Assembly: GCA_000002445.1 (NCBI GenBank)
Contig: CP000066.1
Coordinates: 1,120,001 to 1,184,000, forward strand
Length of the DNA: 64,000 bases
Source of the DNA: Trypanosoma brucei
Lineage: Eukaryota
Direction: 5' to 3'
Shown: in pieces, positions 1,110 to 20,076 of the stretch
Position numbering within the stretch: position 1 is the first letter of the stretch
Layout: every line of letters starts with the position of its first letter
The notes under the pieces: generated by a model
Told to the model about the DNA's origin: nothing
What the model saw: the letters and a program-made list of their open reading frames with translations, nothing else
Databases searched by the model: none
Position numbers and translations under genes: made by a program

Positions 1110-1589
1110 ATGATAAGATATCTTTTGCTTATAAGTCGCCAAGGCAAAGTACGGTTGGCGAAGTGGTACGTTTCCATACCGAACAAAGAAAAAACTCGAA
1201 TTGTTCGTGAACTTTGCCAAACCGCTTTGGGTCGTTCCGCCCGTTTCTCCAACGTGTTGGAGCTCCGCGGCTCCAAATATGTTTGCCAGCGGTATGCGTC
1301 TCTTTATTTTATTGCCTGCATTGACAAGCAAGACAATGAATTGGCAATTTTGGAGATGATTCACCACTTCGTAGAGCTATTGGACCGATACTTTGGCAAT
1401 GTTTGCGAGCTGGACCTTATCTTCAACTTCCACCGGGCATATTTTGTGCTTGACGAAGTTATTTTGGGAGGGGAATTGGAAGACACAAGTAAGAAATCAA
1501 TATTACGGCAGATTGAAATGCACGAGGCGGCAGCGGAGGACACGGAATTATCCAGAGGATCCGGCACAAATTCCTCAAAGGCACGCTAA
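1110..1589 (+). CDS. clathrin adaptor complex AP-1 sigma (small) subunit
   Basis: Translation from the first ATG (MIRYLLLISRQGKVRLAKWY...KRYASLYFIACIDKQDNELAILEMIHHFVELLDRYFGNVCELDLIFNFHRAYFVLDEVILGGELEDTSKKSILRQIE) aligns along its whole length with AP sigma-1 chains (SRQGKLRLQKWY, RYASLYFC, DNEL, VCELDIIFNFEKAYFILDE, QDTSKKSVL). The 28 codons the ORF track adds upstream are probably 5'UTR. Confidence 0.85.
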   Translation: MIRYLLLISRQGKVRLAKWYVSIPNKEKTRIVRELCQTALGRSARFSNVLELRGSKYVCQRYASLYFIACIDKQDNELAILEMIHHFVELLDRYFGNVCELDLIFNFHRAYFVLDEVILGGELEDTSKKSILRQIEMHEAAAEDTELSRGSGTNSSKAR

Positions 1590-1740
1590 AACTCCCCTTC
1601 TTTTCCCTTCCCTTCCCTTTCCTTCCCTATCCAAAGGCGGCTAACAAAAAGAAAAAAAAAGAAGAGCATGAGGAGGAGGAGGAGGAGGAGGAGGAGGGAA
1701 AACAAAAACAAAAACAAACACAAACACACACACAAGGAGG
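1590..1740. repeat. simple-sequence block: (CCCTT)-type polypyrimidine, (GAG)n about 10 units at about 1668-1698, (CA)n/(CAAA)n at about 1700-1735
   Basis: Read directly in the sequence immediately 3' of the AP-1 sigma stop codon. Confidence 0.8.
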
Positions 1741-2645
1741 GTTCGAAATGAAGCGTGTCGCCTCCATTTTTTTTTCTTTTTCCCACCACCACTCTCGCCT
1801 CTGTAGTTGCTGCAGCTTTCTCTTCCCTTCTTTCATCTGTTGTTTTTTCCACCATTTTCTTTCTGTGTGTTTTGCTTCTCTTACAGAAATTAAACTTTTA
1901 TTCCTATTTGTATTGCCTTTTCTTTCTTGTGGAAACGTTCCGTTCACCATCAGAAGTTACTCTTGTTCCTCGCAAAGGTCGCAAAGGATTAACGTGATTA
2001 TTATTATTATCTTTAAAAGGAAGAAAGAGGGAAATAAAGAGAAGGAGAGTCAAATTTCATAGGCAACATCGCGTTAAATATGGACTAACGCGGCGATTAA
2101 GTGGTCAAAAGTTACTCGACCAACAAAGTCAATGGTATCGCCGGTAGCGTCAAAAATAAAAAGTGCATCTCACCGGATCATCCCTCAATAGCGCACCAAA
2201 CAGTCCTCCACGTGAGAGCGGAAGCAAAAGGCAGAAAAGGTGCATGAACAAATGCGGAATAAGCCCCGCGCCCTAATAGCAACAGAAATAGTAAAAATGG
2301 TATCGTCGCCGCCCAAGAAAAAAATTAAATTGTAACTCCCCCCATTCAAAACCGAAAATACGAGAAGATCATAAATAAAACAGCATTCTCACTTTGGCAG
2401 TATCGGCTTTCAAAAGATTCCACAGCTATTCACACAAAAAAAATAAATAAAATTTACACAACCCGTTTTCAAGAATAAAAAACACAGATCTATATAAAAT
2501 CCATCAAAAGCGAAAAAAAAAATAATGAACAAAGAGTAAGGGAAATGCTATACTATCAGCCGCCGCGTCTTTTCCCATAAAAAGAAATCGAGACATAAGT
2601 CTCGCCCCCGTCGCTCTTTAAAAGACCCCTCCCCTTTTTTTCCGT

Positions 2646-3510
2646 GTGGCCCAGGGCGGTGGGGAAACGGAAGGGTGTGTGTTTGTATGCTTTTGGGGCC
2701 GCCTGATTTGTCAGGGTGGCCCAGGGCGGTGGGGAAACGGAAGGGTGTGTGTTTGTATGCTTTTGGGGCCGCCTGATTTGTCAGGGTGGCCCAGGGCGGT
2801 GGGGAAACGGAAGGGTGTGTGTTTGTCTGCTTTTGGGGCCGCCTGATTTGTCAGGGTGGCCCAGGGCGGTGGGGAAATGGAAGGGTGTGTGTTTGTATGC
2901 TTTTGGGGCCGCCTGATTTGTCAGGGTGGCCCAGGGCGGTGGGGAAATGGAAGGGTGTGTGTTTGTATGCTTTTGGGGCCGCCTGATTTGTCAGGGTGGC
3001 CCAGGGCGGTGGGGAAACGGAAGGGTGTGTGTTTGTATGCTTTTGGGGCCGCCTGATTTGTCAGGGTGGCCCAGGGCGGTGGGGAAACGGAAGGGTGTGT
3101 GTTTGTATGCTTTTGGGGCCGCCTGATTTGTCAGGGTGGCCCAGGGCGGTGGGGAAATGGAAGGGTGTGTGTTTGTATGCTTTTGGGGCCGCCTGATTTG
3201 TCAGGGTGGCCCAGGGCGGTGGGGAAACGGAAAGGTGTGTGTTTGTATGCTTTTGGGGCAGCCTGATTTGTCAGGGTGGCCCAGGGCGGCGGGGAAACGG
3301 AAGGGTGTGTGTTTGTATGCTTTTGGGGCCGCCTGATTTGTCAGGGTGGCCCAGGGCGGTGGGGAAACGGAAGGGTGTGTGTTTGTATGCTTTTGGGGCA
3401 GCCTGATTTGTCAGGGTGGCCCAGGGCGGTGGGGAAACGGAAGGGTGTGTGTTTGTATGCTTTTGGGGCCGCCTGATTTGTCAGGGTGGCCCAGGGCGGT
3501 GGGGAAATGG
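2646..3510 (+). repeat. tandem array, 70-bp unit x about 12.4 copies, G-rich on plus strand (consensus GGTGGCCCAGGGCGGTGGGGAAACGGAAGGGTGTGTGTTTGTATGCTTTTGGGGCCGCCTGATTTGTCAG)
   Basis: Exact 70-nt periodicity is visible (ORF-track pseudo-ORFs start every 70 nt: 2646, 2716 ... 3346). Units are about 98% identical, with a few point variants (AAACGG/AAATGG, GTATGC/GTCTGC, GGGCC/GGGCA). Each unit carries four G3-4 tracts. Confidence 0.95.
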
Positions 3511-6500
3511 GCGGGGGGTTGTGAAGTCTTTTATGTGGGCGGTGTTTGGTGCTGGGCGAATTCGGATGTGATTGTTATGCGTTGCTTGTGTTCCTGCGTA
3601 ACCTTATTTTCCCCCTTTTTTTGAGGTGAGAGAAAAGGTTCGGAAAGGGCGAAACATGGAAGGGAAACGGGACTGCCTGGTGTCGGTTGAGCAGTTTTTC
3701 CGGCGAGTTCACTGCTCACACGCGTTTTGTGGGACAGAAAATCCGACAGCTGCCCGGAGGCAAGTGAATCGGGCGCTTGTGTGGATGGCAGGCGGGGATC
3801 GGGCGTCCGGTAAGGACGGTGATGCCGGGAAGCGCGGTCGTTAGGGCCAACGGTCGTGGCGGCGCGGTGGGGGGCGCTTGATCCTTAACTTTGGAAGGTG
3901 CGTCTCCCTTTTTTTTTTGAAGTAAACTTTGGAAGTTATTTTAACCAGGTGGACGGTGGTTGCGCTACTGTTTTAGTTTTTTTTTCTTTATGCTTTTTAG
4001 AATGCTCTTTGCGGCGGGGCGATTGAAAGTCGCCTCGGCTTGGGGGTGCGCTTTTTTTTTTATTATCATTATGCAGGCGGGAAAGCGTTGAGCTTTTCGG
4101 GGGGACGGGCTTCCGCCAAAAGCTCTTGTGGGTGGAGGTGCAGTTTTATAAGGGGCGGCAGCGACAAAGCTGTTTCTAATGCTCCCTCTTTTTTTTTTGC
4201 ATTTCGGTGGCCCTGAGGGTTAGTTCCTCAAAGAAATCCGCTGCAGCAGCTTAATTCATTCGAGCGTCATCGGAGGGACACGGGGGACTTGTATGAGGGA
4301 CGACGGGTTCGGCAAGTGGAGAGTGGCGCCGTCGCACCCTTTTTTCGAAGTCAAGAAGGTGTGCAGAGAAAACCTTTTGAATGGTTTTGGCACCGTTTTG
4401 TTTCTTTTTAGAGGAGAAAGGGGAAACACGGCCCACTTTGACGTGTGGTGTGGCTCTGGGAGAACTCTAACCGCTTATTTTCAATGAAAGCCTTTCCCTG
4501 CTCCGAGTTCCGGCGCGAAAGAGAAGCACGCGTTGGGGTTTGGGAAAGGGGGGTGCAGCAGAGAAGGCTTGGGGAGCATCCTTTCAAAACGTCCCTGCAA
4601 TCCTTCTTGCCCACCGAAATAAAAAATTTCTTCATGACCTTTCCCTAATCCATGTTTTTTTCAGAAAAAATTCATGTATTTTTTTCTTCTTAGAACTTTG
4701 CTTAAATCAGGAGTGCCTTAAATAAAGTAAGGCGCTAACACTTTCGCCGGATTTATTAAAGGGTGTTCCTACCTCAGTTCCCCCAGCTTTGAAACTTTCG
4801 ACTTTCACCAACCCATGCCCCACAAGGGTCGTCAAGTTAGTGATGTAGCGGTTCGAGATGCGCCCCGCCAAGTCGGTGTAAGAAAGGCCTGTGACCGGTT
4901 TGCCAACAACACGAAAGGCGCTAGCGTCAGGCCCGGTTGTTGCCGCCTCTGTTCGTGCTTGAGCCGCCTTGCTTAAGAAATTCGTGGCGGAGACGCTCGG
5001 CTTTTTCTTGTGAAAAGACAAACCCCCTTCCGCGGTGTTGCCCGTTTCGCATCTCCCCGGAACGGCGGAAGTTGCTTGGGGGGGGGGGGGGAGGGCGGGA
5101 TGCCCTGTGCCCGTATTCATCTGCATGCTGCGCTGGTCTTGCGTTCCGTAGTCTTGCCGATTTTGCGTCGGCTTGCTGCTTCCCGCTCCCGTTGGCCGCT
5201 CTGTTCTCTGTTCGACGGACCCCTCACGACCGGTGCTGCAACCTGTTTTTTGGAAGGGCACGTGACGTGCAACGTGCCCGGGACGACACACCCGCATTCG
5301 CCTTATCGGCCGGCGGCCCTTTAGCCGCGCGTGTATGCGGAGGGAGAAGGGGGAGGGGAGGGGATGTGCTCAGAAAGCCGCGGAGGTGCATTGGACGCTG
5401 CCTTTGACCGTGGTGAATTACATTGAGGGGTTCGTGTATTCATCTGGTTTTGGCAGCGCCAGTGGCTATGACAGTCGTTCCTTGGGGCGCATTTTATTGG
5501 GGTCGGGGTGTCAGAGGAATCTTTTCCAATTTGCCGTGCACTTTTCTCACCGCAGGGCATTGCCGCTCCGCTGCACAGGGAAGGTCCCGCTCGATGAGGC
5601 GGGTGGTCTTCTGCCCCCTATAAGAGACGCAAATCGAAGGTCAGCTCAAGTCGAATATTTACTTTCTACGGGCGCCGGGGCAACGGCCTCACCCGTTCTA
5701 AAATGGGGGACTGCAGAACGTTACCGCTCGTTCGGGAAGGGCTGGACGTGGTTGAAGGTCCGAAAACAACGAAAGCTTTGGAAAGTGTAGCGTTTACGCT
5801 GTAGCTTTCGAATATTAAGTAGCCCGCTATGGCGGCAGCCCGTTTTCCCCATAGCTTCAATGAAAGCACGGTAAGATTGGAGCAACCGAGCGGGAATCGG
5901 TGCTCATTAGCCATGGGAAAGTGATGCAAGCTCTCATCGTGATGTGTGGGGCGCCTGCGCGCCAGAGGGCGAAAGCGGGAAAGCGACAGTAGATTACTGC
6001 CCGGAGCGGCGTTTCAAAGTAACCAGTGACGTGGGCTCAATCCGACTGAGACCGGTTAAGGGAGAGCAGTTCCCCCACCGGAACCACTTGCAAACAAGGC
6101 TGCAACGTGAAAGCTGGAAAGGCTGCCGAAATTTTTGACGGTGGTCGTGGATTTGCCTTCCTGCGCACGGCAAAACCGGGGGTGGCGTAGAAAGCATCGA
6201 TCAGTTCGGACGGCGGTAGCATAACGCTAGCGGTGGAAAACGGTTTGGCCAGGGTCTCGGAGACAATGTCCAGCAGGACTCTGAAGGAGGTGAGAAAAGA
6301 CAACTAACGGCGCAGGATGGCCTTGACAACGCCGTTGCATCCGCTGACCGGTAACCGGTGGCCATGAAAAAAAGACGTGGGGCGATGGCGTGCGGACAGC
6401 CGGTGGCAGAAGCTTCCGGTATTTCCCGACGTGGCGGACGATGTGCTTTTGCCCTCCCGCACGTGATTCCGCGCTCCTTTGTGCACGCACCGTCCCCTTC

Positions 6501-7209
6501 CGCCACCAACCGAAGCTCACGGCCAATTTTAAACGGGTCGAAATGCGGTTTCGAAGGTCCCACAGCCGCGCGGCTTCGCGCTAACGAAGAACCTCTATAC
6601 GATCCGATGGCGGATTTTCGGGTGCCACAGAAAACGATATCCCACGCGGGGGAGCAACGCCCAGCCGCCCGCGGAAATTCCGAGGGGCGCTGACGCGCGA
6701 CGGGAGCGCCGTTCGGCGAATGGAACGTCTCCGGGTCCCTCTTTACCTGCGGTCCACACTACCTTCAAAATATTTGCGGGCACCTTCCCGACGAGACCTG
6801 TGCAGACAAAGTTGCAGTTCATCCAACCCAGCTTGAAACACAAAGAAACGAAAAGCAAGCATCTACGAAACCCGCGAAGCAGTGACAGCAATAACGGAGC
6901 AACTCACCCGCAGCAATCTAGGCACAGTAGATGAGTTGAGCCATCTCTTTCTTTCTTTTCAGTTACCTTACGGCAGCCCCAGGTGCACGTCCGCAAGGTA
7001 AACGCTAATAGAGGTCAGAACCATGTCGTATCGGTTGCGACGTACTTCTATCCCTTTTTCTTCGTAGTGTACCGGTCTTCCTTCACCCCATTACCTTACC
7101 TTCGCTCCCTTCCTTCAATCCCCTTTGTGGCGCAGAAGCGCCTTGCGCTTGCCGATGCCAGTCCCAGTCCATATTGAATTCGCAACTCCTCTGCAGTGCC
7201 TTTGGACCC

Positions 7210-10200
7210 CTACATTTCAATACCCTCGGCGTAGTTCTGGTAGCGGTCGTAGAGAACCGTTCGAACGTTCTCCCTGGATTCTGCGATCCGCTTCCGCATG
7301 AAGTCTGCTGCCCACGCTTCACTCTTATGCATCGCGAGGCGCCAGGACAGATCGTGAATTGTCTTTTTGGGCTTAAAGCAAGGAAGACCACTGCTGAGCA
7401 TCAGTTCAACAAGCACACAAATCTCGTGGGCGTATTGTCGAACAGCGAGGAAGCAACGAATCGTCAGGTCCACAAATAGATTGTAGCTCTCCAGATCCAC
7501 TAGAGCTTTTGCGAGGGAGGGGCTTGGTTGCTTCCCTTTCCCTTCATTCACCGGGTACCCCATGAGCTGCGCCATTTCCAGGGTTAACTTGAACGGGGAC
7601 GACTCGAAGTTGATGTCGCCTCCCGGTGAAAGGTCAAACAAAAACCCGAAGTCTATGTGCACCAAGTGGCCATAGGAGTCGATAAGAATATTGCCGTTGT
7701 GACGGTCCTTTATGTTGAGGACGAAAGAAGCGGTGGCATATGAGGCCATGCTTCGGATAAAACACTCCCGAGCGCGATGGAATCTTACGGATTCTGGGTA
7801 GCCGTAGGTCTGTACAAAGTACTCCGAGAGGTTACCTTCCACCAGTTTCCCAATCTGATCACGACTCATTGCCCGGGGAACACACTCGATAACACCACAA
7901 TCCCTCCCGGTGGCAACCACCTTGTACGGATAAAGAAAGGATGGTAGCTGGATGGAGTCAAACACACGGCGGAAGAGCCCTATCAGTTGCAATGCAAGTT
8001 GATCCTGCCTGCAATCATCCCCCATCTTGAAAATGCAGAGCTTTGACGTTACCGCTTCTTTATCCGAGCCGGTCGCCTCTCCTTGTGCATTTTCCCCGTC
8101 CCGACTATTCTGCGGAACGCAGTGAAACTCCACCATGATGGGGCACTTTGCCGCGCTCTGCATTGCACCAGCGGTGTCAGGGCGAAGGGCGACGATTCTC
8201 CAGTTGGGATCTGTGGGCAAATATAAGTGCTGTCCACCGATAGAGTCGTGGAATTCCTTATCGCGCAACCGAAGGCGGAGCCTTCCCTTTCGAAGCGGCC
8301 TCTCGATAGGCATCATTTCTCCAGACAAGGAAATAATTCGGTCAATGAAATTGAACTCACCGTCATGGAAAGCTTTCCTTGAGGCATTGAAGGAGTGCCG
8401 GATCTCCGACGCGAGCTGGGAGCACTTCCGTGCGTGCTCGCTATCTCCACCCCCTTCCGCTTGTAGGGACCAAAGGAGCTGGTGCTCAAACGTTTGGCTC
8501 CTTTTGCACATTTTCTTCAAGAAAGACGGCACGGCCCCGATTGGGTCCTCTGAAAGTATCTGAAGTATTTGAGGGAGGTAAAACGTAAGCGAGTCGCACT
8601 TTTTACACAAAAGGCTGCGAAGGGCGTACGCGGAGACCTGCGGGTACCGAGTCGCATACCGCGCGTGCAGATGGCGGAGGGACTGCACAAGACCACCGTT
8701 CCTGAAGAGGTGGAGCGCAGGATACCCGTTGACCAGCGTTACGCTGTTCAAATAGAGATCCACTGCTCCAGGTATATTGCAGTAGAGCTCTGGATTCTCA
8801 GAGACGATTTGCGCAGCCCAACCCACCACATGTCTGTTGGGAAACCGCGCCACCAACGCAACCAGTACTGCGGGGTCGCTTTCTGACGCCGCCGTGCAGT
8901 GCGATAACCATTCGCCACTGGAAATGGCGTCAAAATAGTCGCGGGACGGCGTTGAGAGGGAATCGGAAGGATGGAGCCAAACGAGGAGTCGATGGTGCTC
9001 GTGTTTGACCAGGAGTTGCAGGAGTCGGATGAGGCTCATTAGCCGTTCCCGCTCAGCGGCAATCAGGCTTTCAATGTCCGTGAAAGTTCCACCCGCAATG
9101 TCTTCACCTATCCTGCGCTGCGCGACACTTCCCACAAGCGTCAGGTTGACAAGGGTGGAATCAGCTGACTTTTCTGGTGAGGCAAAGTCCAGAAACCCAT
9201 CGCTAGAACGTGACAATGCTTTCATGTCCCTGTCCAACATTTCCATAAGTTTTCGCAAGGCCGCTAGTTCCTTCTCCGCGGCCGTGCGGTCCCGCGAGAA
9301 GTACCAAGAAGGCGGCGTCTTTTGAAACCAGTGCATCAAACAGCGATAAAAGCCTTGGCGCAGGGCTCCGACGAAGAAGGCGGGGGTTAGGGCCGGCAAA
9401 CCCTCGCGCGCACGGCACTCGTTTGCAGCTTGTAAATTACGGCAAATGAGACCTATCATCAGGACGCAGCGCGTCATTTCCGAGAAGGACGCATCTTTTG
9501 TGGAGAGCCTGGACGGAGTTTTCACAATCCTCAAGGCGAGTTGCTTTAAAAGGTGGAGAACGGGCGGGACAAATGATACTGGCCCGCCCTCATCGACATA
9601 GCACGCAATTAAAAACTCGGCGAGAAGCTTATGTGGAGAGTTCGTGGCATAATCATGTGAGTAAATGGCCGCATCCCTCCTTAACTGTGGTTTCCTGCCT
9701 GACTCCACTTCGTCAAGGCCTCTCGGTCGGGAGCCGTCAAACAGTCCAACACGATGGGTAATTGTCCACACAAATCCCTCTACAACTTCTGCTAGCAGTG
9801 GGGCTGCAAAGAGCCCCGGTCTCTCAAATAAGATCCACCTCCAGCAACTGATGGCCTTGGCCAGGGCGTCGCTTGAAAACGAACGGATGGGGTACTGCAC
9901 GATGCACCGCAGAAGGCTTATATGCATTGATGTACCAAGCCGCGCGCTCGTCAGGAGCACAACCGCGGAGCAAGCTAGTGTGTCACTTTCATGCAGCTTA
10001 TCTGACAAGGTCTGACCACTAGGTGGGGTACATGTGGACGTCCAGGAACCCCGGTGAACCGTGTCCTCCGCTTCCCCACCTTGGCAACCACGACTAAAAT
10101 CATCCACACCTATTTCACCAGACAGAGCGTTCGTCAACGTCACGAACTGCTGCTCCCTTAGTTGTTTACTCAAACCGAAGGTCTTCACAAGGTCCTCTCC

Positions 10201-13200
10201 CGCTTCCTGCAGGTGCTGAAGCAGCAACTGATCAGCACCACCATGGGTTGCTACCCGAAAGAGTGCCCTAACGTGGCCCTTTGCGTTACTCCTCCTTATG
10301 AGGCTTCGCTCACACATCGGCTTCGACGTTGCCGATAAACCCCCAGCGTTGTGTGCACGAAGGGCCAGGCTTAACCCGATGCCGGGCTCGACCGTGCCGT
10401 ACGTCGGCTGTTCAACGATGAAACGCTCGGCATGTTCCCGCAAGGCGATGGGGGAGCCTTGCTCTGCTAGCTGGGCCCAATGCACTGCAAAAGAGACGGC
10501 ATCACTCAACTGTTTTCGTCGTTCCGGGGATTCCGGATCCGCAGCGACGGCGGGGGGCTCCAACATTTGCTTTGATTGGCAGTAAAGCTCCACCTCTGCT
10601 GCACTTCCCTTTTCAAGCACGCCGATGACGTCCCACAGAAGTGGAAGAGCCTGGCAAGTCCCCACAAACGACGGGAAGGCTGATATAATTTTACTTAGTA
10701 TTTCTTTGGCGGAGCGCCTTACTGATTGAACGGCGAAACCATATAATAAGACGAGTTGTGGTACGTCCGCCTCGATCCGTTTCGCGGCCGTGTCGGGAGA
10801 CGTGGCTTTCAACGCTGAGAGATACCGATTTGTTGCAGCAGCCGTTAGGCACGACGTTGCTGCCCGGAAATCTGCACTAGCGTCGAACTCACAAATTTCG
10901 AACCGGTGGTACTGTGCAATAGTTGAGATGAAGCCGCAGGAAGCTCGGAGGATTTCGAGGGTTGCCAGCGCATGAAAAAGAAAAAGTTCAGAAAACGGCA
11001 ATCGGCGCCCCACCGACGATACACCAGGGCAGCAGTCTTCCAGGTATTGCAGCAACCCCTTTCTGTAAGGCTTTATGGCGTGGCTGTCAGTGCTGTAGTT
11101 GCGCAAATGACGTTCCAAAAGTTCAATATCACTCATGACCTGTTGGTAATCGGTGGATCGCATGCGCAAAAGCTGTGGTGATAAAGAGGCAAGGAGGCGC
11201 ACGCACTTCGTTTGGTTCCAAGACAACACGTACTCACCCCCACGGGGTTGCTTAACATCTGATGATCCCTCCGCACCTTTTCCCTCAGCTTGCGTTAGGA
11301 GCATCACCTTGGAAGTAAAGCCATAATACGTAAGCATCAGCCAATAGGAGCGCAGCTGGGCGGCGTCGCTGTCATCATAGAGTGGAAGACTCATGCTATT
11401 AGGCTGAATGCCACTGTGGTGCATGAAAGAGTCTGTACTTTCCAACTGCTTGAACCTCTGCACGTTATCACGGTAACTCTTGAGACACTGTACGTCTTTT
11501 TCAGGCAAAAGTGTGAGAAGCTGGCAGAGCAGACACAACGGTTGCAGGAACAGCGAAAGCGTCGCAAGGGCCACCTCGCTCATATCGGAACGCATATGGT
11601 GACCGTTCTGCGTTTCCTTCCCACCGTCAATGTTAGTGTCGTAAATAATCCCGGAGCCTGGCCACAAACAGTTGATCATGCATCGGAGGACCGAGTGTAG
11701 TAGGAGACGCAGTACCTTTCCCTCGTTGTTGATCGCCTCAACAAGAGGCGATTTGTTCCATTCATCGCCGGCATCGCCCGAAGCATTGTGGGGTAAATCT
11801 CGAAGCGCCTCACGGACCATCGCAAGGACACGATCATGGCAACGCCGAGTAAGGTGCCAAAAAGCGTCCGCCGTGACCTGTAGTTCGTTGCCTGGAAACT
11901 GTTTATTTGTATGCGACAATTCGATACACCGAGTGTGGGCTCGCAGAGTGTCCTCCACCGTATCAAACAGCAGCTGGGTGTACCGACGTAGACTCTCGTA
12001 AGGCAACGGATTGCACAACGAATGGTGCCTCGACAAGAGAACACGGTTCATCATCTCAAAGCACACAGAAAAGCGCAGCGATACGTCGACGGGACCTTGA
12101 TCCAAACGTCCCTCAACGTTACTCCCTGCTTCATCAGCACCGTCCCCCAACTGCTGCAACCCGTCATTTCGCGTTACAGCATCGTTGACCTCTGTGCTGA
12201 CAAGGGCGCGTATGTAAGCATTTGTGGCACACAGTCCCTGCAAGCAGAGCGCGGCGGTTCGGCTTCTCGTCTCCACATTGGATGATGTGGCAATTCCCAG
12301 ATTTCCCGCCCTTAAAATGCAACGAATGAGTTCATGTGTTACTTGTTCAACACCACCGTAAAATTTGTTGGAAAATTGTATTCTCCTCATTTTGGCCCCT
12401 AAGACCGAGAAGGGATGTGTACTTGTCGACAGCGCTCTGCCATCGGTGGATGCGACGAACGCCAGAACTTTTGCACTGTGCTCCGCAATATCTTGGTGAA
12501 GCGACACCACCGGCCCAGCCGTACCAATCGCGGCGAAAGCACTCTTGGGTAGGAGAAGAAACTTAACGATGTTGCCAATCACCCCGAGGCGAAGGGCGTC
12601 TTCCTCCATGGAGGGCACATACCCCGCATCACCTGAGCCGTTACCACGCTCGTGTTGTTGTCCGCTGTGCGCGTTGTGTTGGCAAGTGCTGTTGACTATG
12701 GCGTAGCACCGAATACGCTCCAGCTCCGCTTGGAGCAAGCTCACCACTACAGCACGCAGGCTGGTCCCATACAATACAAAACTACGATTTTGAACCTTGC
12801 CCCATTTGTCCTCAGAATCCTGAAGAACCGCCCAGACGCCTTCAATGAGCGTTTCGGCTTCGACAACCTCCCTTCGGTCAACAAAATTAGATATTGAACA
12901 GCAGGAAGTAGTTCCCCCATCCCCATTTCCCCCACTACGTGCTGCACTGTCGCCCGGACAGGAAATTGACATCGCAGTTTCCTTCAGCCACCCCATTAGA
13001 AGCCTCAGCGTAGCTGCCACTAATCGCGCCTGGATGCCCTCCCTTCGCTGGAGGCCCCTGAGTATATATTCCGGCCGTAACAGCGTTAGACACCAATAGC
13101 GCAATTTGGTATAGCAGACACCATGAACCGATGATAGTGCTTCCACAAGGTAACACAAAAGCTCCTTGTATGGAGGATCCCTTCGATGTGAGGATGTAAC

Positions 13201-14148
13201 GAGCGTATCCGTTAGGTTGTGCAGGTGCTCTATGAGCTCCGTGCCGAGATCCACGTTGCCGGCTTCTCCAGCGATGGCGATTCCCTCAAGCGCACCGAGT
13301 GCAATGGAGTTGTCTACGCACTCGTCTGCATTTGAGGGAATGCATTGAACGAGGAGTGGATCGACGACATGCGCCCCAAAACCCACTAAACCTTCCCTAC
13401 TCAACTCGACACTACCATCACCAACATCCTTGCCAGCATAAGTAGACGTGGGACAACCCGCCTTCTCCCTTTCCAACCCTCCGCTGCCACTGCTTGCATG
13501 CCGAAGGTGGATGCCACATGCAACAAGTGAAGAGACAAACCCCCGAATGTCAACCCCCAATGAAAAAGTTGTTGCGTTGAGCTGTTGCATAAGTGAGGTG
13601 TACAAAGAAACGCACTCCAGATAGAACGATTTTGTGCGATCAAATGGGAGTGAGCGGCACTCGACCGCTAGAGCCACAAGCGCGATTAGCACTGGAGCAT
13701 TCTTCCCAGAAATACGACCCTGTCCCGCAATCAAATCCTTCGCTTGTGACATCTCGAATAGCTGCGTTACTCGTGGGTGAAGCAACATGTAACCACTGTT
13801 GACAACCGAGAGGGCATGTGTGGTTGGCATGGCACCACCGTGCAGATGCTGGGGCATACTTACACTTGACAAAGAGGCCAACCATGGGTCTGTACGACTT
13901 CTCCCGAACAGCACATCCGCACCCGAATAGCCCTCTTGCATGCACGGGCCCAACAATTCCTCCCTCCCGGAGACGGCGAGCGGCGCGTCGCCCCACCTCG
14001 GACCTCCGCTACCGAGCGCAAGCGCCTGTGGCGAATTATCCGTTGCGGGGGTGTCTAGCGGTTGTCGACGCAGTTGGTAGCCAAGCACACGAGCAAAGGC
14101 GAATGCAGGAGAGTGGCTGACCCATGAGGGGAACCTGATGTCGTCCAT
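7210..14148 (-). CDS. phosphatidylinositol 4-kinase, type III alpha-like (2312 aa)
   Basis: ATG at 14146-14148 verified. The C-terminal catalytic domain has the PI3/PI4-kinase signature motifs GDDCRQD (catalytic loop) and HIDFGFLF (DFG/activation loop). The lipid-kinase accessory region (...LSEYFVQTYGYPESVRF...) and a very long N-terminal HEAT/armadillo-like region are as expected for the approximately 2000+ aa PI4KIII-alpha class. Confidence 0.9.
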   Translation of the reverse strand: MDDIRFPSWVSHSPAFAFARVLGYQLRRQPLDTPATDNSPQALALGSGGPRWGDAPLAVSGREELLGPCMQEGYSGADVLFGRSRTDPWLASLSSVSMPQHLHGGAMPTTHALSVVNSGYMLLHPRVTQLFEMSQAKDLIAGQGRISGKNAPVLIALVALAVECRSLPFDRTKSFYLECVSLYTSLMQQLNATTFSLGVDIRGFVSSLVACGIHLRHASSGSGGLEREKAGCPTSTYAGKDVGDGSVELSREGLVGFGAHVVDPLLVQCIPSNADECVDNSIALGALEGIAIAGEAGNVDLGTELIEHLHNLTDTLVTSSHRRDPPYKELLCYLVEALSSVHGVCYTKLRYWCLTLLRPEYILRGLQRREGIQARLVAATLRLLMGWLKETAMSISCPGDSAARSGGNGDGGTTSCCSISNFVDRREVVEAETLIEGVWAVLQDSEDKWGKVQNRSFVLYGTSLRAVVVSLLQAELERIRCYAIVNSTCQHNAHSGQQHERGNGSGDAGYVPSMEEDALRLGVIGNIVKFLLLPKSAFAAIGTAGPVVSLHQDIAEHSAKVLAFVASTDGRALSTSTHPFSVLGAKMRRIQFSNKFYGGVEQVTHELIRCILRAGNLGIATSSNVETRSRTAALCLQGLCATNAYIRALVSTEVNDAVTRNDGLQQLGDGADEAGSNVEGRLDQGPVDVSLRFSVCFEMMNRVLLSRHHSLCNPLPYESLRRYTQLLFDTVEDTLRAHTRCIELSHTNKQFPGNELQVTADAFWHLTRRCHDRVLAMVREALRDLPHNASGDAGDEWNKSPLVEAINNEGKVLRLLLHSVLRCMINCLWPGSGIIYDTNIDGGKETQNGHHMRSDMSEVALATLSLFLQPLCLLCQLLTLLPEKDVQCLKSYRDNVQRFKQLESTDSFMHHSGIQPNSMSLPLYDDSDAAQLRSYWLMLTYYGFTSKVMLLTQAEGKGAEGSSDVKQPRGGEYVLSWNQTKCVRLLASLSPQLLRMRSTDYQQVMSDIELLERHLRNYSTDSHAIKPYRKGLLQYLEDCCPGVSSVGRRLPFSELFLFHALATLEILRASCGFISTIAQYHRFEICEFDASADFRAATSCLTAAATNRYLSALKATSPDTAAKRIEADVPQLVLLYGFAVQSVRRSAKEILSKIISAFPSFVGTCQALPLLWDVIGVLEKGSAAEVELYCQSKQMLEPPAVAADPESPERRKQLSDAVSFAVHWAQLAEQGSPIALREHAERFIVEQPTYGTVEPGIGLSLALRAHNAGGLSATSKPMCERSLIRRSNAKGHVRALFRVATHGGADQLLLQHLQEAGEDLVKTFGLSKQLREQQFVTLTNALSGEIGVDDFSRGCQGGEAEDTVHRGSWTSTCTPPSGQTLSDKLHESDTLACSAVVLLTSARLGTSMHISLLRCIVQYPIRSFSSDALAKAISCWRWILFERPGLFAAPLLAEVVEGFVWTITHRVGLFDGSRPRGLDEVESGRKPQLRRDAAIYSHDYATNSPHKLLAEFLIACYVDEGGPVSFVPPVLHLLKQLALRIVKTPSRLSTKDASFSEMTRCVLMIGLICRNLQAANECRAREGLPALTPAFFVGALRQGFYRCLMHWFQKTPPSWYFSRDRTAAEKELAALRKLMEMLDRDMKALSRSSDGFLDFASPEKSADSTLVNLTLVGSVAQRRIGEDIAGGTFTDIESLIAAERERLMSLIRLLQLLVKHEHHRLLVWLHPSDSLSTPSRDYFDAISSGEWLSHCTAASESDPAVLVALVARFPNRHVVGWAAQIVSENPELYCNIPGAVDLYLNSVTLVNGYPALHLFRNGGLVQSLRHLHARYATRYPQVSAYALRSLLCKKCDSLTFYLPQILQILSEDPIGAVPSFLKKMCKRSQTFEHQLLWSLQAEGGGDSEHARKCSQLASEIRHSFNASRKAFHDGEFNFIDRIISLSGEMMPIERPLRKGRLRLRLRDKEFHDSIGGQHLYLPTDPNWRIVALRPDTAGAMQSAAKCPIMVEFHCVPQNSRDGENAQGEATGSDKEAVTSKLCIFKMGDDCRQDQLALQLIGLFRRVFDSIQLPSFLYPYKVVATGRDCGVIECVPRAMSRDQIGKLVEGNLSEYFVQTYGYPESVRFHRARECFIRSMASYATASFVLNIKDRHNGNILIDSYGHLVHIDFGFLFDLSPGGDINFESSPFKLTLEMAQLMGYPVNEGKGKQPSPSLAKALVDLESYNLFVDLTIRCFLAVRQYAHEICVLVELMLSSGLPCFKPKKTIHDLSWRLAMHKSEAWAADFMRKRIAESRENVRTVLYDRYQNYAEGIEM

Positions 14149-15384: not shown

Positions 15385-18300
15385 CTATTCAAGTGGCGGT
15401 AGGTCAGTATAGGTTGGTGAGCGTGCAATGGCGTCCGCAAGATCCTGTTCAAACAAATTTTCCAGAGCACGTAAAGAGGCGATGTGGAGGGCTTGCGCCC
15501 TCGTAAGTGCCGCACCAAACCCCACCAATTGCACCTCGCCCTTCCTTGTTTCCCTCCTATGCCTCTGTAAGTAAATGCGGCACTGAAATCCACCACCGTT
15601 GCTCGGCTGTTGCTCGACACGCAGCCAGCGCTCATTGCGAAACTCCCGAGTAACACACCGTCGCAAAAGTGTGTAAGGCCGAGGAGGACCTGCCGACTCT
15701 GCTCGCTCAAGTTGACGCTGGAGGTCTCGCAAAACGGCTGCTGGCAACACTTCCACCACTGGTGCCGTAAGTATTTCTTCAGCAAAGGAATGAATCTCCT
15801 TGGAGTGTGCTGAAAGATACGTCAGTGCTCTTGGGAAGCTCTGCCGACATGCGAGAAGCAGCACGTCACGCACCCCCTCGCGCTTTGACGTGGCGACTGC
15901 CCGCGCAACCGCCAAACCCCCCGCCCTCGAGAAGGAAAGAGTCACGAACCAATACCCTCCAAGCTCCCTTGCATCAATATCAACCACCTGTTGCTCCACC
16001 GTGGAAGGTGATGCTCCATCGTCCTCAATGGCAGTAGCAGTGCCGGTAGACACACCAAAGAAGGTGTTGAACATGTAGAGCGAAAGTTCACGCGAATTGG
16101 TTATGGGTGGGGGGGCGTGGCACTCATATTCTGTCCACAACTGTTCACCCTTGTCGCCAGCTAGTCGGTTCGTGGCCGCCCTCAGCGCACTACACAGCAC
16201 ACATGCAGCGCTCTCGCCCTCCTCACCAATACGTTCGCTGACAAGCAAGTCACCTTTCTGGCCACATACAGCGGCACGAAAGCGGGCACGGAATGGTCGC
16301 AGCAGGTACTCGACACTTCCATCGTTCCCCGCCTCCTCTTCAGCGCCATCCGATTCCTGCTGCTCCAAACTCCATGTGAAAGGGGCCATGCTTGGCGCTT
16401 GTTCCTCCAACAGCAGCATAACCTGGTGGACGAACGATTCCGACCCAACTCGAAACACAGAGTTGTACACGTTTTGTGCATCCTGGTCGGGATTCACTGC
16501 GTCGCCACGGTTCAGCTTCGCGTACGCCTCAAGTTCCTTTGGAAAGTACCTTTTTGCGAGCGAATAAACGAGGACACGTCGGGCATGTTTAACCTGCGGA
16601 TACGGAGGTGACACGGCGACGACACGCCGCTGCTCTTCACCCTCCACCTGCGCCTCCATCTCCGCAACCCACTGGGGAAGACCCAAGTCACCTGATGCGT
16701 TGCGTAACCTCACCCTCAAGTTGTGCCACCCCAAATCTTCCTCGGCAAAGGCAGAAACAAGCGAAAAAATGTTTCCCATATGCTCCACTCGCTTTTCACG
16801 GGGAAGAGCCCGAAATTTGCTTCCACGAGCCATTGTATCTCCAGAAAGATCAATATCTGGGTGCAACAACAGTGCATCACGGTACTGATTGGGGAAATTT
16901 TCCCTCAGTGCGTCAAGGCAAGCATTGCGCCACGCCTCACCCCTCTTCCTTGCGCGCCGCTCAATTAGAAGCTGATTCGAACGCAAACCATCATCAACTG
17001 TAAGCACTGCTGTGGCTTCGCCCGTGGCACGGTCAGTGTGATAAGTTGTCTGGTAAAAACTTCCAATGAGCTGCGAGGTTAGGGTTCCCAGGAGTGCATA
17101 GGCATTCCATTTCCCACGGTGGTTGGTAGCCACGTTGTAATTGTCATGTTTTTGAACAGCGAGGCTTAGAAGTTGCGTAGTTGGGAAGAAAACACCCCCG
17201 CCTCGTGGATCGAAGTAAACGCGACCCACCTCGGGGTACTGGTCAAGAAGGTACGTAAGCGCCTGCACATAGCAGTCAAACTCGAGGCGATAACGACCAG
17301 GACCGCTTTGCTGCCAAACAACACACCCATCTGACGTGAAGGAAGCGGTAAAGAAGTATCGATGCTTTCCGTGTGGCACGCCCTGATCACCGTCACCGTC
17401 CTTCGGCGCGGTAGAAATATCCCGTTCCTTGTCATCGCCAGCACCATCACCCTCAACACGCACCAAAGCAATATCCTCCGTTTTCTTTCCATATTCCCGG
17501 GAGAGGTGCTGCACCATCGCATCAAACTGCCAGCGCATCCGAACGAGGAGCGGCGAGGATGGGAGAAGCTGAGTGGCGATGTTTGCATCGGGCGAGAAAG
17601 TTAACTCAGCCCGTAGTGCCTGCAACGATGCGTTTTGATAGGCAACTAATGGTGTGGCCTGCCGCTTCACCTGGTGAACGCTTATGTTTCCCCGTGCGTC
17701 CTCCACGGTAACGGCAGCAGTAAATGTTGCCGCCCGAAGCACACGGTACTGTTCCTCTACGGGAATGGGCTCTGTTGGCTCAGCTCCCTCCCCGTGGCAC
17801 GTGACCGGTGATGGTGATGATGGCGACGGAGTTTCCTGGTCATGCCTCTGGGAGTCACCTTTTTCTTTTTCCAACGAACCCTCAGTGCATTCCTCGAAAC
17901 AATGGCTTTCCACAATTTTCTCCCAAGGCCGTACGAGGACCTCAACCTCACGGACGCTTTCCAACTGAACAGAAGGTGACTCCAATTCCGCACGGTAGCG
18001 ATCACGCAGCATCGCCAGGCAACGCACCAACGAGTCGTTTGCGGATTGACCACGGGCCTCTGCGCTGAAGGAAAGGGAGGGCGTCATGCCCCATTCATCA
18101 CGCTCATAGGCACGGCACCGCCACCTCAAATCTGCCCCTTGTTCTGATTCTTGCCCTTGCTTCCCAGAGGAGTTCCGCGGGGACTTAATAGAAAACTTAA
18201 GCACTCGGCTAAAGTGAACACACAACTCTCTCAGTTCATCGATGATTGCTTTAAGCTCCAATTGACGTGGCGATAGCGTCGGCTCTTCCTTGCCTTTACG

Positions 18301-19041
18301 ATAGCTACCTCTTTTTTGATATCCGCGGTTACGTCCCGTACCGCGGCACCCATGCGATGAAGCGGAGGCCCTTTGCTGTGGGTGAATAAAAACTACGTCG
18401 CTTTCTAACGCATCATTCAGCACCGCGTGCAAAACTTCCTTTGCCTCGCCTCCGCTCGCCACCGCTAGCTCTAAGGGGAAGCCTAGCAAACGACACGTAG
18501 CGGATGCTCGGTATTCCGTGACACCACACAGTTGCTGCTCTTGCTTTGATTGTTCTTCTGAATCAAATGAAGCACCCCCTCCTACGGGTTCGTCGTCTTC
18601 TACAACCTCTTCTTCTTCCTCACCGTGTGGAGCTGCCTTGGTTGAATTCCTCGAGTGGCGCCGCTGGCAACGCCGGAGCACAAGTTTGGCCTGCGGGCCA
18701 AACCTTTCCCGCAACAGCGCCTCCGCTTCTGGGAGTCCACAACCACCGTTGTCCGTGCCCACTTCTTCCACTGTTTCACCTGCAGTAAATAACTGCCGGC
18801 GCCCGTGAAGGAGGCAATCGGTCATCGGTGCCGTCACGAGTGGCAGATGAGAGCGCCTGATGGATGGGCTTCGAGTGGAACAGCTCACAGCTGCAGGACA
18901 CGTGTGGGGGGACAAGGTGCGTAACAAAGCGTAACTACGGTTCCCTACGAAGGCCCACGAACAGATGTTGTGCGGTGTGATCAGGGGCAAGAAGGCCCTC
19001 CTTCGCACAAGCGTGCTAAAGGTCATGGTGCACCTCTTCAT
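15385..19041 (-). CDS. large hypothetical protein with at least three dsRBD-like modules and an N-terminal mitochondrial-presequence-like segment
   Basis: The track ORF (to 19242) starts at TTG and first runs through a polypyrimidine-encoded FCFFFIFYFLPP stretch. The first ATG is about 19041 (MKRCTMTFSTLVRRRAFLP..., Arg/Ser-rich amphipathic). The C-terminal half contains repeated helices of the type G-x-G-x-S/T-K/R-[KR]-x-A...AA..AL (ERRARKRGEAWRNACLDALREN; ATSKREGVRDVLLLACRQ; VGFGAALTRAQALHIASLRALENL). Confidence 0.55.
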   Translation of the reverse strand: MKRCTMTFSTLVRRRAFLPLITPHNICSWAFVGNRSYALLRTLSPHTCPAAVSCSTRSPSIRRSHLPLVTAPMTDCLLHGRRQLFTAGETVEEVGTDNGGCGLPEAEALLRERFGPQAKLVLRRCQRRHSRNSTKAAPHGEEEEEVVEDDEPVGGGASFDSEEQSKQEQQLCGVTEYRASATCRLLGFPLELAVASGGEAKEVLHAVLNDALESDVVFIHPQQRASASSHGCRGTGRNRGYQKRGSYRKGKEEPTLSPRQLELKAIIDELRELCVHFSRVLKFSIKSPRNSSGKQGQESEQGADLRWRCRAYERDEWGMTPSLSFSAEARGQSANDSLVRCLAMLRDRYRAELESPSVQLESVREVEVLVRPWEKIVESHCFEECTEGSLEKEKGDSQRHDQETPSPSSPSPVTCHGEGAEPTEPIPVEEQYRVLRAATFTAAVTVEDARGNISVHQVKRQATPLVAYQNASLQALRAELTFSPDANIATQLLPSSPLLVRMRWQFDAMVQHLSREYGKKTEDIALVRVEGDGAGDDKERDISTAPKDGDGDQGVPHGKHRYFFTASFTSDGCVVWQQSGPGRYRLEFDCYVQALTYLLDQYPEVGRVYFDPRGGGVFFPTTQLLSLAVQKHDNYNVATNHRGKWNAYALLGTLTSQLIGSFYQTTYHTDRATGEATAVLTVDDGLRSNQLLIERRARKRGEAWRNACLDALRENFPNQYRDALLLHPDIDLSGDTMARGSKFRALPREKRVEHMGNIFSLVSAFAEEDLGWHNLRVRLRNASGDLGLPQWVAEMEAQVEGEEQRRVVAVSPPYPQVKHARRVLVYSLAKRYFPKELEAYAKLNRGDAVNPDQDAQNVYNSVFRVGSESFVHQVMLLLEEQAPSMAPFTWSLEQQESDGAEEEAGNDGSVEYLLRPFRARFRAAVCGQKGDLLVSERIGEEGESAACVLCSALRAATNRLAGDKGEQLWTEYECHAPPPITNSRELSLYMFNTFFGVSTGTATAIEDDGASPSTVEQQVVDIDARELGGYWFVTLSFSRAGGLAVARAVATSKREGVRDVLLLACRQSFPRALTYLSAHSKEIHSFAEEILTAPVVEVLPAAVLRDLQRQLERAESAGPPRPYTLLRRCVTREFRNERWLRVEQQPSNGGGFQCRIYLQRHRRETRKGEVQLVGFGAALTRAQALHIASLRALENLFEQDLADAIARSPTYTDLPPLE

Positions 19042-20041: not shown

Positions 20042-20072
<31 letters not shown>
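20042..20072. repeat. (AT)n microsatellite, about 15 units, followed by (GT)n
   Basis: Read directly. Similar (TA)n tracts at about 19571-19588, 48701-48714, 51565-51590 (preceded by (CA)n 51551-51565), 53093-53110, 55544-55563, all in intergenic DNA. Confidence 0.9.

Positions 20073-20076
<4 letters not shown>

What the first reader, a model, noticed from the sequence alone, without database searches (positions are those of the whole stretch)
2646..3510. Near-perfect 70-bp G-rich tandem array (12.4 units) inside a convergent strand-switch region
The unit is GC-rich and G/T-skewed, with four G3-G4 tracts per 70 nt (GGG-CGGT-GGGG-AAACGGAA-GGG-...-GGGG). The plus strand could therefore fold into about 12 consecutive G-quadruplexes, or support R-loops, exactly where the rightward unit ends. 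It is not the AT-rich (TRR)-containing '70-bp repeat' that flanks VSG genes. It also does not resemble the telomeric, 177-bp, 50-bp or centromeric CIR repeats I know from trypanosomes. Its high unit identity (about 98%) implies recent homogenisation. It is a candidate termination/chromatin-boundary element, or a species-specific satellite seeded at this strand-switch region.
Basis: partly seen in the sequence, partly recalled or inferred. Interest (0 to 1): 0.65.

Follow-up and report, generated by a model that had tools for sequence, protein, structure and literature searches.

The report
Variable 70-bp minisatellite between converging genes
This is a real G-rich 70-bp tandem repeat between two converging gene clusters on Trypanosoma brucei chromosome 3, but it behaves like an ordinary fast-evolving, copy-number-variable minisatellite rather than a conserved stop signal for transcription.

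Summary
Window 2646-3510 holds 12.36 head-to-tail copies of an exact 70-bp unit (98% identical, 60% GC, G:C 385:133). The array lies 1,057 bp downstream of the AP-1 sigma gene (Tb927.3.4000, + strand). It is 3.7 kb from the stop of PI4K-alpha (Tb927.3.4020, - strand), so it sits inside a true convergent strand-switch region.

The same array occupies the same place in other T. brucei-group assemblies, with different copy numbers: 5.4 in Lister 427 and at least 36 in T. b. gambiense, whose array contains an assembly gap. A T. equiperdum contig breaks inside it. Units are more alike within an allele (0.95-0.98) than between alleles (0.92-0.94), while the unique flanks are about 0.98 identical. 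That pattern is concerted evolution.

The convergent junction itself is conserved in T. cruzi and T. melophagium, but neither has an array there.

G-quadruplex potential is marginal. No unit has a canonical motif, G4Hunter is about 1.6, the third G-tract is lost in most units of other strains, and G4-aware RNA folding picks hairpins. By composition it is the most R-loop-prone segment of the window.

Best reading: a Trypanozoon-specific hypervariable minisatellite. A role in base-J or R-loop termination is not excluded but is unsupported. Genome-wide dispersal could not be tested.

The parts
2646..3510 (+). 70-bp tandem array: 12 full units plus 25 nt. The G-rich strand is the + strand. Consensus unit: GTGGCCCAGGGCGGTGGGGAAACGGAAGGGTGTGTGTTTGTATGCTTTTGGGGCCGCCTGATTTGTCAGG
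   Evidence: TRF; unit listing; variant positions 15, 23, 28, 42 and 55; syntenic arrays at L001 11547-11918 and L002 11545-14181
2626..2643 (+). 18-nt polypyrimidine tract directly abutting the array. The first downstream AG (2653-2654) lies in unit 1. It is a candidate trans-splicing and polyadenylation signal (inferred, not tested).
   Evidence: Direct reading of the sequence; the same junction is present in the T. equiperdum contig L003
1110..1589 (+). AP-1 sigma adaptin gene (Tb927.3.4000), the last gene of the rightward transcription unit
   Evidence: Pfam Clat_adaptor_s, E = 2.7e-51; identical protein in three T. brucei-group assemblies; gene identifier from PMC2443814
1590..7209 (.). 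Convergent strand-switch region, 5.6 kb. It has no tRNA, no Rfam family and no ORF with a Pfam match.
   Evidence: 97.6-97.9% identical to Lister 427 and gambiense outside the array
3484..3511 (+). The only canonical (loops 1-7) G4 motif touching the array. It is formed by the last partial unit plus the flanking GGGCGGGGGG.
   Evidence: Regex scan
5078..5099 (+). Canonical G4 motif on a long G run in the unique part of the strand-switch region. A second one lies at 5342-5363.
   Evidence: Regex and G4Hunter scan; inverted-repeat listing shows the G run
7210..14148 (-). PI4K-alpha gene (Tb927.3.4020), the last gene of the leftward transcription unit
   Evidence: Pfam PI3_PI4_kinase, PI4K_N and PI3Ka; gene identifier from PMC7595295

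Best explanation
The array is a locus-specific, hypervariable GC-rich minisatellite (VNTR). It arose in the Trypanozoon lineage inside the non-coding spacer of an old, conserved convergent junction (AP-1 sigma -> <- PI4K-alpha).

Shown: it gains and loses whole 70-bp units, and the units are homogenised within each allele. Inferred: the processes responsible are replication slippage, unequal sister-chromatid exchange and gene conversion.

Its G-richness and R-loop-prone composition are properties of the unit that happened to be amplified. They are not a selected structure. The array probably sits in, or at the edge of, the zone where rightward RNA polymerase II transcription runs out. It probably acquires the generic chromatin of convergent regions (H3.V, H4.V, base J) passively, without being required for termination. 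This last step is inferred and untested.
For: - The same array sits at the same syntenic position with very different copy numbers: 12.4 in the window, 5.4 in the Lister 427 assembly, and at least 36 in gambiense DAL972. A T. equiperdum contig breaks 1.6 units into it.
- Alleles carry different interspersed variant units, including 65-, 66-, 69- and 71-bp forms.
- Mean unit identity is 0.983, 0.954 and 0.948 within alleles but 0.923-0.938 between alleles. The unique flanks are 0.976-0.979 identical.
- The boundaries are sharp, with no degenerate copies in the flanks. No other copy exists in the 64-kb window.
- The convergent junction is conserved in T. cruzi (3.8 kb) and T. melophagium (1.9 kb), and neither has an array there.
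- The G-tract that gives the best G4 motif is not conserved between alleles.
- It is neither coding nor an RNA gene: 70 is not a multiple of 3, every 210-bp frame cycle on the + strand has a stop and no ORF of 50 aa or more lies on the - strand, there is no Rfam match, and unit folds have z-scores of -1 to -2.
- Tschudi et al. inspected all arrays with units over 10 bp and more than 10 copies and found small RNAs only from CIR147.
Against: - The array is the single most G-rich segment of the window. It accounts for all 15 of the 1,270 500-nt windows with at least 40% G and for 13 of the 28 + strand G-cluster motifs. The G-rich strand is the non-template strand for the rightward unit, which is the orientation that favours R-loops and G4s.
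- G-richness as measured by G4Hunter persists in all three alleles even though the exact tracts change.
- Base-J entry sites in Leishmania are G-rich with runs of 3-4 G, and tandem repeats are base-J targets in T. brucei.
- T. vivax has a different GC-rich tandem repeat at the same junction. This could hint that the site favours or uses arrays.
- Genome-wide uniqueness of the 70-mer was not testable.
Confidence: 0.65

Rival explanations
1. The array is a functional termination or chromatin-boundary element. Rightward transcription of the C-rich template yields G-rich RNA that forms R-loops, or the displaced G-rich strand forms G4s. Either structure would stall RNA polymerase II directly or act as a JBP2 entry site that nucleates base J and H3.V chromatin at the end of the Tb927.3.4000 unit.
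For: - Position 1 kb after the last gene of the rightward unit.
- The only segment of the window with at least 40% G, carrying 13 G-cluster initiation motifs in the correct orientation.
- G4Hunter of at least 1.57 in 11 of 12 units.
- Literature: G-rich sequences with runs of 3-4 G flank base-J entry sites, and tandem repeats are base-J targets (PMC4344527). Base J and H3.V mark convergent regions and promote termination in T. brucei (PMC4721609; PMC5359979).
Against: - Absent from the orthologous convergent junction in T. cruzi and T. melophagium.
- Copy number varies at least 7-fold between strains.
- The G-tract needed for the best G4 motif is lost in most Lister 427 and gambiense units.
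- No canonical G4 motif within any unit.
- G4-aware RNA folding prefers hairpins.
- DRIP-seq shows little R-loop enrichment at T. brucei convergent regions, mostly at tRNA genes (PMC6294496).
- T(N)12A doublets occur once per unit against 2.4 expected.
- No repeat array was seen at the two syntenic junctions examined in other species, and the papers read describe termination sites by chromatin marks rather than by any repeat element. Other T. brucei convergent regions were not examined here.
Confidence: 0.2
2. The array is expressed as RNA, either as the 5' part of a trans-spliced non-coding transcript starting at the AG at 2653-2654, or as a long 3'UTR extension of the developmentally regulated AP-1 sigma mRNA. 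In this reading it acts post-transcriptionally, for example as a protein-binding G-rich repeat.
For: An 18-nt polypyrimidine tract (2626-2643) directly precedes the array, with an AG in unit 1. AP-1 sigma (Tb927.3.4000) is 6-7-fold stage-regulated in PMC2443814. Two- and three-unit RNAs fold into stable inter-unit hairpins (z = -2.8 for two units).
Against: There is no Rfam family. Single-unit folds are no better than shuffles (z about -1). Copy number and unit sequence vary freely between strains. No transcript data could be examined.
Confidence: 0.07
3. The array is one copy of a dispersed satellite, or is related to the centromere.
For: Genome-wide occurrence could not be tested. T. brucei centromeres lie between transcription units and consist of tandem repeats.
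Against: The chromosome 3 centromere repeat is 120 bp, and other centromeres carry 29-, 59- or 147-bp units (PMC3447711). There is no rRNA gene or retroelement signal nearby. No other copy exists in 64 kb of window plus about 40 kb of syntenic loci. The array is short, 0.4 to at least 2.6 kb.
Confidence: 0.05
4. The array is an assembly artefact.
For: The gambiense array contains an N-gap and the T. equiperdum contig ends inside the array. Copy numbers in any single assembly, including the window, may therefore be wrong.
Against: The array is present at the same position, with the same flanks, in four independent assemblies including the chromosome-scale Lister 427 assembly GCA_003543875.1.
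Confidence: 0.02

Closest known systems
Classical GC-rich hypervariable minisatellites (VNTRs), including the T. brucei typing markers MS42, CRAM, 292 and MORF2-REP
   Same: Unit length is in the 10-100 bp range. The array is GC-rich with strong purine/pyrimidine strand asymmetry. It sits at a fixed locus with strain-specific copy number. It contains interspersed variant units and shows within-allele homogenisation.
   Different: It is not MORF2-REP, a 102-bp coding repeat, and CRAM is also a coding repeat (from my own knowledge, not checked here). Identity with MS42 or 292 could not be checked because no primer or sequence data were accessible. No paper in the searchable library contains the unit sequence.
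VSG-associated 70-bp repeats of T. brucei
   Same: A nominal unit length of about 70 bp, tandem organisation, and the same organism.
   Different: From established knowledge, the VSG repeats are AT-rich, contain (TRR)n runs, lie upstream of VSG genes in expression sites and subtelomeric arrays, and are imperfect in length. This unit is 60% GC, has no triplet run, is exactly 70 bp, and lies in a chromosome-core housekeeping region between AP-1 sigma and PI4K-alpha.
T. brucei centromeric repeats (CIR147; 29-, 59- and 120-bp arrays)
   Same: Tandem arrays located between transcription units.
   Different: The chromosome 3 centromere carries a 120-bp array. Centromeric arrays are AT-rich and far longer (from my own knowledge). 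CIR147 yields siRNAs, whereas no other tandem array does.
G-rich base-J entry sequences at convergent strand-switch regions (Leishmania; Genest et al. 2015)
   Same: G/C strand bias, runs of 3-4 G, and a location in a convergent strand-switch region.
   Different: Those were defined functionally, by SMRT detection of base J on plasmids in Leishmania, and they are not tandem arrays. No base-J data could be examined here, and the T(N)12A maintenance doublet is under-represented. This is a resemblance in composition only.

Membership tests
Minisatellite / VNTR | Head-to-tail tandem units of about 10-100 bp | tested here: met
   Period 70, 12.3 copies, 98% matches
Minisatellite / VNTR | Copy-number polymorphism between individuals or strains at one fixed locus | tested here: met
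   12.4, 5.4 and at least 36 copies at the syntenic site. There is an assembly caveat for gambiense (N-gap) and T. equiperdum (contig break).
Minisatellite / VNTR | Internal variant repeats and concerted evolution (units more alike within an allele than between alleles) | tested here: met
   Within alleles 0.948-0.983, between alleles 0.923-0.938, flanks 0.976-0.979
Minisatellite / VNTR | Single locus rather than dispersed | not testable with these tools
   No kinetoplastid genome can be searched by DNA. There are no other copies in the window or the syntenic loci. The peptide and metagenome searches found nothing, which is uninformative.
VSG-associated 70-bp repeat | AT-rich unit containing (TRR)n triplet runs, upstream of VSG genes | tested here: not met
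   60% GC, no triplet run in the unit, and housekeeping genes on both sides
T. brucei centromeric repeat | Chromosome-specific unit (120 bp on chromosome 3; 147 bp for CIR147) in long AT-rich arrays | tested here: not met
   The unit is 70 bp, GC-rich, and the array is under 1 kb. The chromosome 3 centromere unit is 120 bp according to PMC3447711.
Canonical G-quadruplex motif array | G3+ N1-7 G3+ N1-7 G3+ N1-7 G3+ in each unit | tested here: not met
   No motif within units and one at the 3' junction. Ten units qualify only with an 8-nt loop. Lister 427 has 2 and gambiense has 8 of at least 34 units.
Canonical G-quadruplex motif array | G4Hunter (window 25) above the threshold used for T. brucei (1.57) | tested here: inconclusive
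   11 of 12 window units reach 1.57 (per-unit median 1.64, maximum 1.68). In Lister 427, 2 of 5 units pass, and in gambiense 21 of 34. G4-aware RNA minimum-free-energy folds contain no quadruplex.
R-loop-forming sequence (G-cluster initiation zone plus G-rich elongation zone) | At least 3 G3+ clusters within 10-nt spacers, followed by at least 100 nt with 40% G or more on the non-template strand | tested here: met
   13 initiation motifs and 44.5% G over 865 nt. It is the only such segment in the window, and it is in the correct orientation for the rightward unit. This is sequence prediction only.
R-loop-forming sequence (G-cluster initiation zone plus G-rich elongation zone) | RNA-DNA hybrid detected in vivo | not testable with these tools
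   Published DRIP-seq reports weak signal at convergent regions in general.
Trypanosomatid Pol II termination site (marked by base J, H3.V and H4.V) | Enrichment of base J, H3.V or H4.V and a drop in nascent RNA | not testable with these tools
   Only general statements from PMC4721609 and PMC5359979 were available. Tandem repeats are masked in at least one chromatin study.
Trypanosomatid Pol II termination site (marked by base J, H3.V and H4.V) | If the array is the functional element: conservation at the orthologous junction in other species | tested here: not met
   No array in T. cruzi or T. melophagium, and no sequence similarity
Tandem RNA-gene cluster (snoRNA or other) | Match to a known RNA family, or a fold clearly more stable than shuffles | tested here: not met
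   No Rfam match at E <= 1 within the array. Single-unit z-scores are -1.0 to -2.1.

The most novel reading that the evidence does not exclude
The array is a lineage-specific nucleation site for termination chromatin. Its G-rich, R-loop-prone tandem units would recruit JBP2, base J and H3.V, and so set where the Tb927.3.4000 transcription unit stops. Copy number would then tune read-through into the PI4K-alpha antisense zone and the output of DCL2-dependent siRNAs from this convergent unit (probably CTU7 of Tschudi et al.). The unrelated GC-rich array at the same junction in T. vivax would be an independent solution to the same need.
Probability: 0.12. Interest if true: 0.6.

Novelty: new member of a known kind. 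Interest (0 to 1): 0.25.

Why it matters
As an ordinary minisatellite it has practical value only. It is a single PCR-sized, highly polymorphic marker in the chromosome core that separates T. brucei-group strains, with copy numbers of 5, 12 and at least 36 and strain-specific variant-unit maps.

It is also a site where short-read assemblies break and where chromatin and small-RNA analyses are usually masked.

It would matter more if copy number turned out to modulate termination or siRNA production at this convergent junction. No DNA sequence determinant of RNA polymerase II termination is described for T. brucei in the papers read here. This locus offers natural alleles of very different length in which to test the idea.

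Tried and rejected
- Protein coding: rejected. 70 is not a multiple of 3, the + strand ORFs stop every 210 bp and no ORF of 50 aa or more lies on the - strand within the array, and the 66-aa repeat peptide has no relative in 5.8 billion proteins.
- RNA-gene array (for example 70-nt H/ACA snoRNAs): rejected. No Rfam match even at E <= 1, and the folds are unremarkable.
- tRNA or other Pol III genes in the strand-switch region: none.
- Degenerate retroelement or pseudogene in the 3.5-7.2 kb GC-rich spacer: no Pfam match for 11 ORFs. The six-frame translation is full of stops.
- Ancestral or degenerate units in the flanks: none above shuffle level.
- Homology between the T. brucei 70-mer and the T. 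vivax 120-mer: none.
- Dispersal test through repeat-encoded peptides: uninformative, because gene callers do not call ORFs in the array even at the known loci. The metagenome scan was empty.
- Identifying the window's own assembly through its exact PI4K protein: not on record.
- The PI4K homologue search recovered only a T. congolense fragment, whose flank shows no array. The T. congolense state stays unresolved because both contigs end inside the strand-switch region.
- Literature search for the unit sequence and for a named chromosome 3 minisatellite: nothing found. MORF2-REP was excluded because its unit is 102 bp.
- The bacterial promoter and terminator scan is irrelevant for this organism and was at shuffle level.

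Full report
**Observation**

Tandem Repeats Finder gives 2646..3507, period 70, 12.3 copies, 98% matches, no indels and score 1668. It is by far the strongest repeat in the window. Reading the sequence shows 12 exact 70-bp units followed by 25 nt of a thirteenth, ending at 3510. Only five positions vary among the 12 units: 15, 23, 28, 42 and 55. Unit-derived 20- and 28-mers occur 13 and 12 times, against 0.02 and 0 expected from shuffles. All copies are on the + strand and inside the array. The array is 60% GC with G 385 and C 133.

**Organism and context**

- A full-length match to the trypanosomatid snoRNA TB3Cs2H1 lies at 39820-39886.
- The ORF at 1110..1589 (+) is an AP-1 sigma adaptin (Pfam E = 2.7e-51). 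Its protein is identical in T. brucei Lister 427 (GCA_003543875.1), T. b. gambiense DAL972 chromosome 3 (FN554966.1) and T. equiperdum OVI.
- The next gene, 7210..14148 (-), is PI4K-alpha.
- The literature identifies the two genes as Tb927.3.4000 and Tb927.3.4020.
- All genes upstream of AP-1 sigma in the syntenic loci are on the + strand. Every long ORF from PI4K to the end of the window is on the - strand.
- So 1590-7209 is a genuine convergent strand-switch region. The array begins 1,057 bp after the AP-1 sigma stop and ends 3.7 kb before the PI4K stop.
- The region has no tRNA, no Rfam family even at E <= 1, and no ORF with a Pfam match.
- An 18-nt polypyrimidine tract (2626-2643) abuts the array, and the first AG lies in unit 1. 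In trypanosomes that arrangement usually marks a trans-splicing and polyadenylation site. This is an inference; it was not tested.

**Comparison within the T. brucei group**

The same repeat lies at the same position in each assembly:

| Assembly | Copies | Note |
|---|---|---|
| Window | 12.4 | Closest to T. equiperdum OVI |
| Lister 427 | 5.4 | L001 11547-11918 |
| T. b. gambiense DAL972 | 34.5 + 2 | An N-gap lies between the two blocks, so at least 36 is a lower bound |
| T. equiperdum OVI | unknown | The contig ends 1.6 units into the array |

The differences in distance from AP-1 sigma to PI4K (5,123, 5,621 and 7,390 bp) largely track the array length.

The alleles carry different variant units, including 65-, 66-, 69- and 71-bp forms in gambiense. 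Mean pairwise unit identity is 0.983 (window), 0.954 (Lister 427) and 0.948 (gambiense) within alleles. Between alleles it is only 0.923-0.938. The unique right flank is 97.6-97.9% identical between strains. This is the signature of concerted evolution with rapid turnover, which is minisatellite behaviour.

The window itself is closest to T. equiperdum OVI (99.1% over 2.76 kb) and 96.6% identical to Lister 427 and DAL972. Its exact PI4K protein is not on record, so its assembly was not identified.

**Comparison across species**

- The AP-1 sigma -> <- PI4K-alpha convergent junction is conserved in T. cruzi (3.8 kb spacer, with AP-1 sigma itself tandemly amplified) and in T. melophagium (1.9 kb spacer).
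- Neither species has a tandem array there. Neither spacer shows meaningful similarity to the T. brucei spacer; the only hits are four low-complexity matches of 26-34 nt in T. melophagium.
- T. congolense is unresolved. Both contigs end inside the spacer and neither shows an array.
- The T. vivax contig ends 981 bp after AP-1 sigma in a different, C-rich 120-bp repeat that has no similarity to the 70-mer.
- The 70-bp array is therefore a Trypanozoon-lineage acquisition at an old junction.

**G-quadruplex and R-loop potential**

- Each unit has five G3+ tracts, counting the one across the junction.
- No unit contains a canonical motif with loops of 1-7 nt. With an 8-nt loop, 10 window units qualify (GGG-7-GGG-4-GGGG-8-GGG).
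- That motif depends on GGAAGGG, which is GGAAAGG in most Lister 427 and gambiense units. Those alleles have only 2 and 8 such motifs.
- The median per-unit G4Hunter maximum (window 25) is 1.64 in the window, 1.44 in Lister 427 and 1.72 in gambiense. A recent T. brucei study used a threshold of 1.57 and predicted 13,409 sites genome-wide. G-richness persists, but the specific tract arrangement does not.
- ViennaRNA folding with the G-quadruplex term never places a quadruplex in the minimum-free-energy fold of three-unit transcripts. Inter-unit hairpins win.
- The three canonical + strand motifs of the region lie at the array's 3' edge and in the unique spacer: 3484-3511, 5078-5099 and 5342-5363.
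- By composition the array is the most R-loop-prone segment of the window. All 15 of the 1,270 500-nt windows with at least 40% G overlap it, and it holds 13 of the 28 + strand G-cluster motifs. The G-rich strand is the non-template strand for rightward transcription.

**What the literature adds**

- Tschudi et al. 2012 found DCL2-dependent siRNAs at all 49 convergent transcription units. Chromosome 3 has three. CTU7 (1,120,900-1,132,400; 669 reads per million) is probably this junction, judging by gene order. That link is my inference and is not verified.
- The same authors inspected every tandem array with a unit over 10 bp and more than 10 copies. Only CIR147 produced small RNAs. They also report that the chromosome 3 centromere carries a 120-bp array.
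- Briggs et al. 2018 found little DRIP-seq enrichment at convergent regions, mostly at tRNA genes.
- Genest et al. 2015 found that base-J entry sequences in Leishmania are G-rich with runs of 3-4 G. They cite earlier work showing that tandem repeats are base-J targets in T. brucei. However, the T(N)12A maintenance doublet occurs once per unit here, against 2.4 expected.
- Tandem repeats are catalogued by TriTrypDB and are masked in at least one chromatin study. This locus is therefore likely under-examined rather than unknown.
- No paper in the library contains the unit sequence.

**Interpretation**

The best-supported reading (about 0.65) is a locus-specific, hypervariable, GC-rich minisatellite that arose in the Trypanozoon lineage. 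Shown: it changes by gain and loss of whole units and is homogenised within alleles. Inferred: the mechanisms are replication slippage, unequal sister-chromatid exchange and gene conversion. Any termination-type chromatin over it is a passive consequence of where it lies.

The functional rival, an R-loop, G4 or base-J nucleating terminator (about 0.2), draws on position, orientation and composition. It is weakened by four things: the lack of conservation at the orthologous junction, free variation in copy number, loss of the key G-tract in other alleles, and the generally weak R-loop signal at convergent regions.

Expression as part of a spliced non-coding RNA or a 3'UTR (about 0.07), a dispersed or centromeric satellite (about 0.05) and an assembly artefact (about 0.02) are less likely. 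The evidence for and against each is given under the rival explanations.

**Limits**

No kinetoplastid genome could be searched by DNA. Copy numbers are taken from assemblies and may be wrong, most obviously for gambiense. No epigenomic or transcript data could be examined at locus level.

**Verdict**

This is a new member of a known kind (a minisatellite) and is of low to moderate interest (0.25). It has a modest chance (about 0.12) of being a copy-number-tunable termination or siRNA-modulating element, which would be considerably more interesting.

Noticed in passing
L005 11113-11461 (T. vivax contig SOPI01000050.1, contig end): The T. vivax contig ends 981 bp after the AP-1 sigma stop. It ends inside a C-rich 120-bp tandem repeat (2.5 copies, 95%) followed by repeats of about 26-30 bp. 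These are unrelated to the T. brucei 70-mer. This may be a second, independent GC-rich array at the same conserved convergent junction.
   Followed up: partly
L007 199-10504 and L006 10001-14417 (T. cruzi): The AP-1 sigma gene is tandemly amplified in T. cruzi, with at least 6 copies at about 1.96-kb spacing. It is single-copy in T. brucei, T. vivax and T. melophagium.
   Followed up: no
window 28265-39289 (-): Five tandem ORFs of 583-595 aa at about 2.3-kb spacing. The first matches Pfam Nodulin-like (an MFS-type transporter), so this is a tandem gene array.
   Followed up: partly
window 39820-39886 (-): A full-length match (91 bits) to the trypanosomatid H/ACA snoRNA TB3Cs2H1, which ties the window to T. 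brucei chromosome 3.
   Followed up: yes
window 3511-7209: The 3.7 kb between the array and the PI4K stop is GC-rich (0.50-0.58). It has no convincing ORF, Pfam match or Rfam match, yet it is 97.6-97.9% conserved between T. brucei strains. It carries the canonical + strand G4 motifs (5078-5099 on a G14 run, and 5342-5363). Its nature is unexplained.
   Followed up: partly
L002 about 13890-14030 (T. b. gambiense DAL972 chromosome 3): An assembly gap (run of N) lies inside the 70-bp array, so the reference copy number for gambiense is only a lower bound.
   Followed up: yes
window 2626-2654: An 18-nt polypyrimidine tract abuts the array, and the first AG lies in unit 1. This is a candidate spliced-leader acceptor, which would put the array at the 5' end of a processed RNA.
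   Followed up: no
window 15385-19242 (-): A 1,285-aa ORF with no Pfam domain lies between PI4K-alpha and an ankyrin-repeat protein.
   Followed up: no
window 1670-1735 and 20042-20076: Short microsatellites are present: (GAG)9 and an AAAACAAACACA repeat just downstream of AP-1 sigma, and (AT)17 further along. The repeat just after AP-1 sigma differs between strains: an AAACAC hexamer array in L001 and L002, and an AAAAACAAACAC 12-mer in L003.
   Followed up: no
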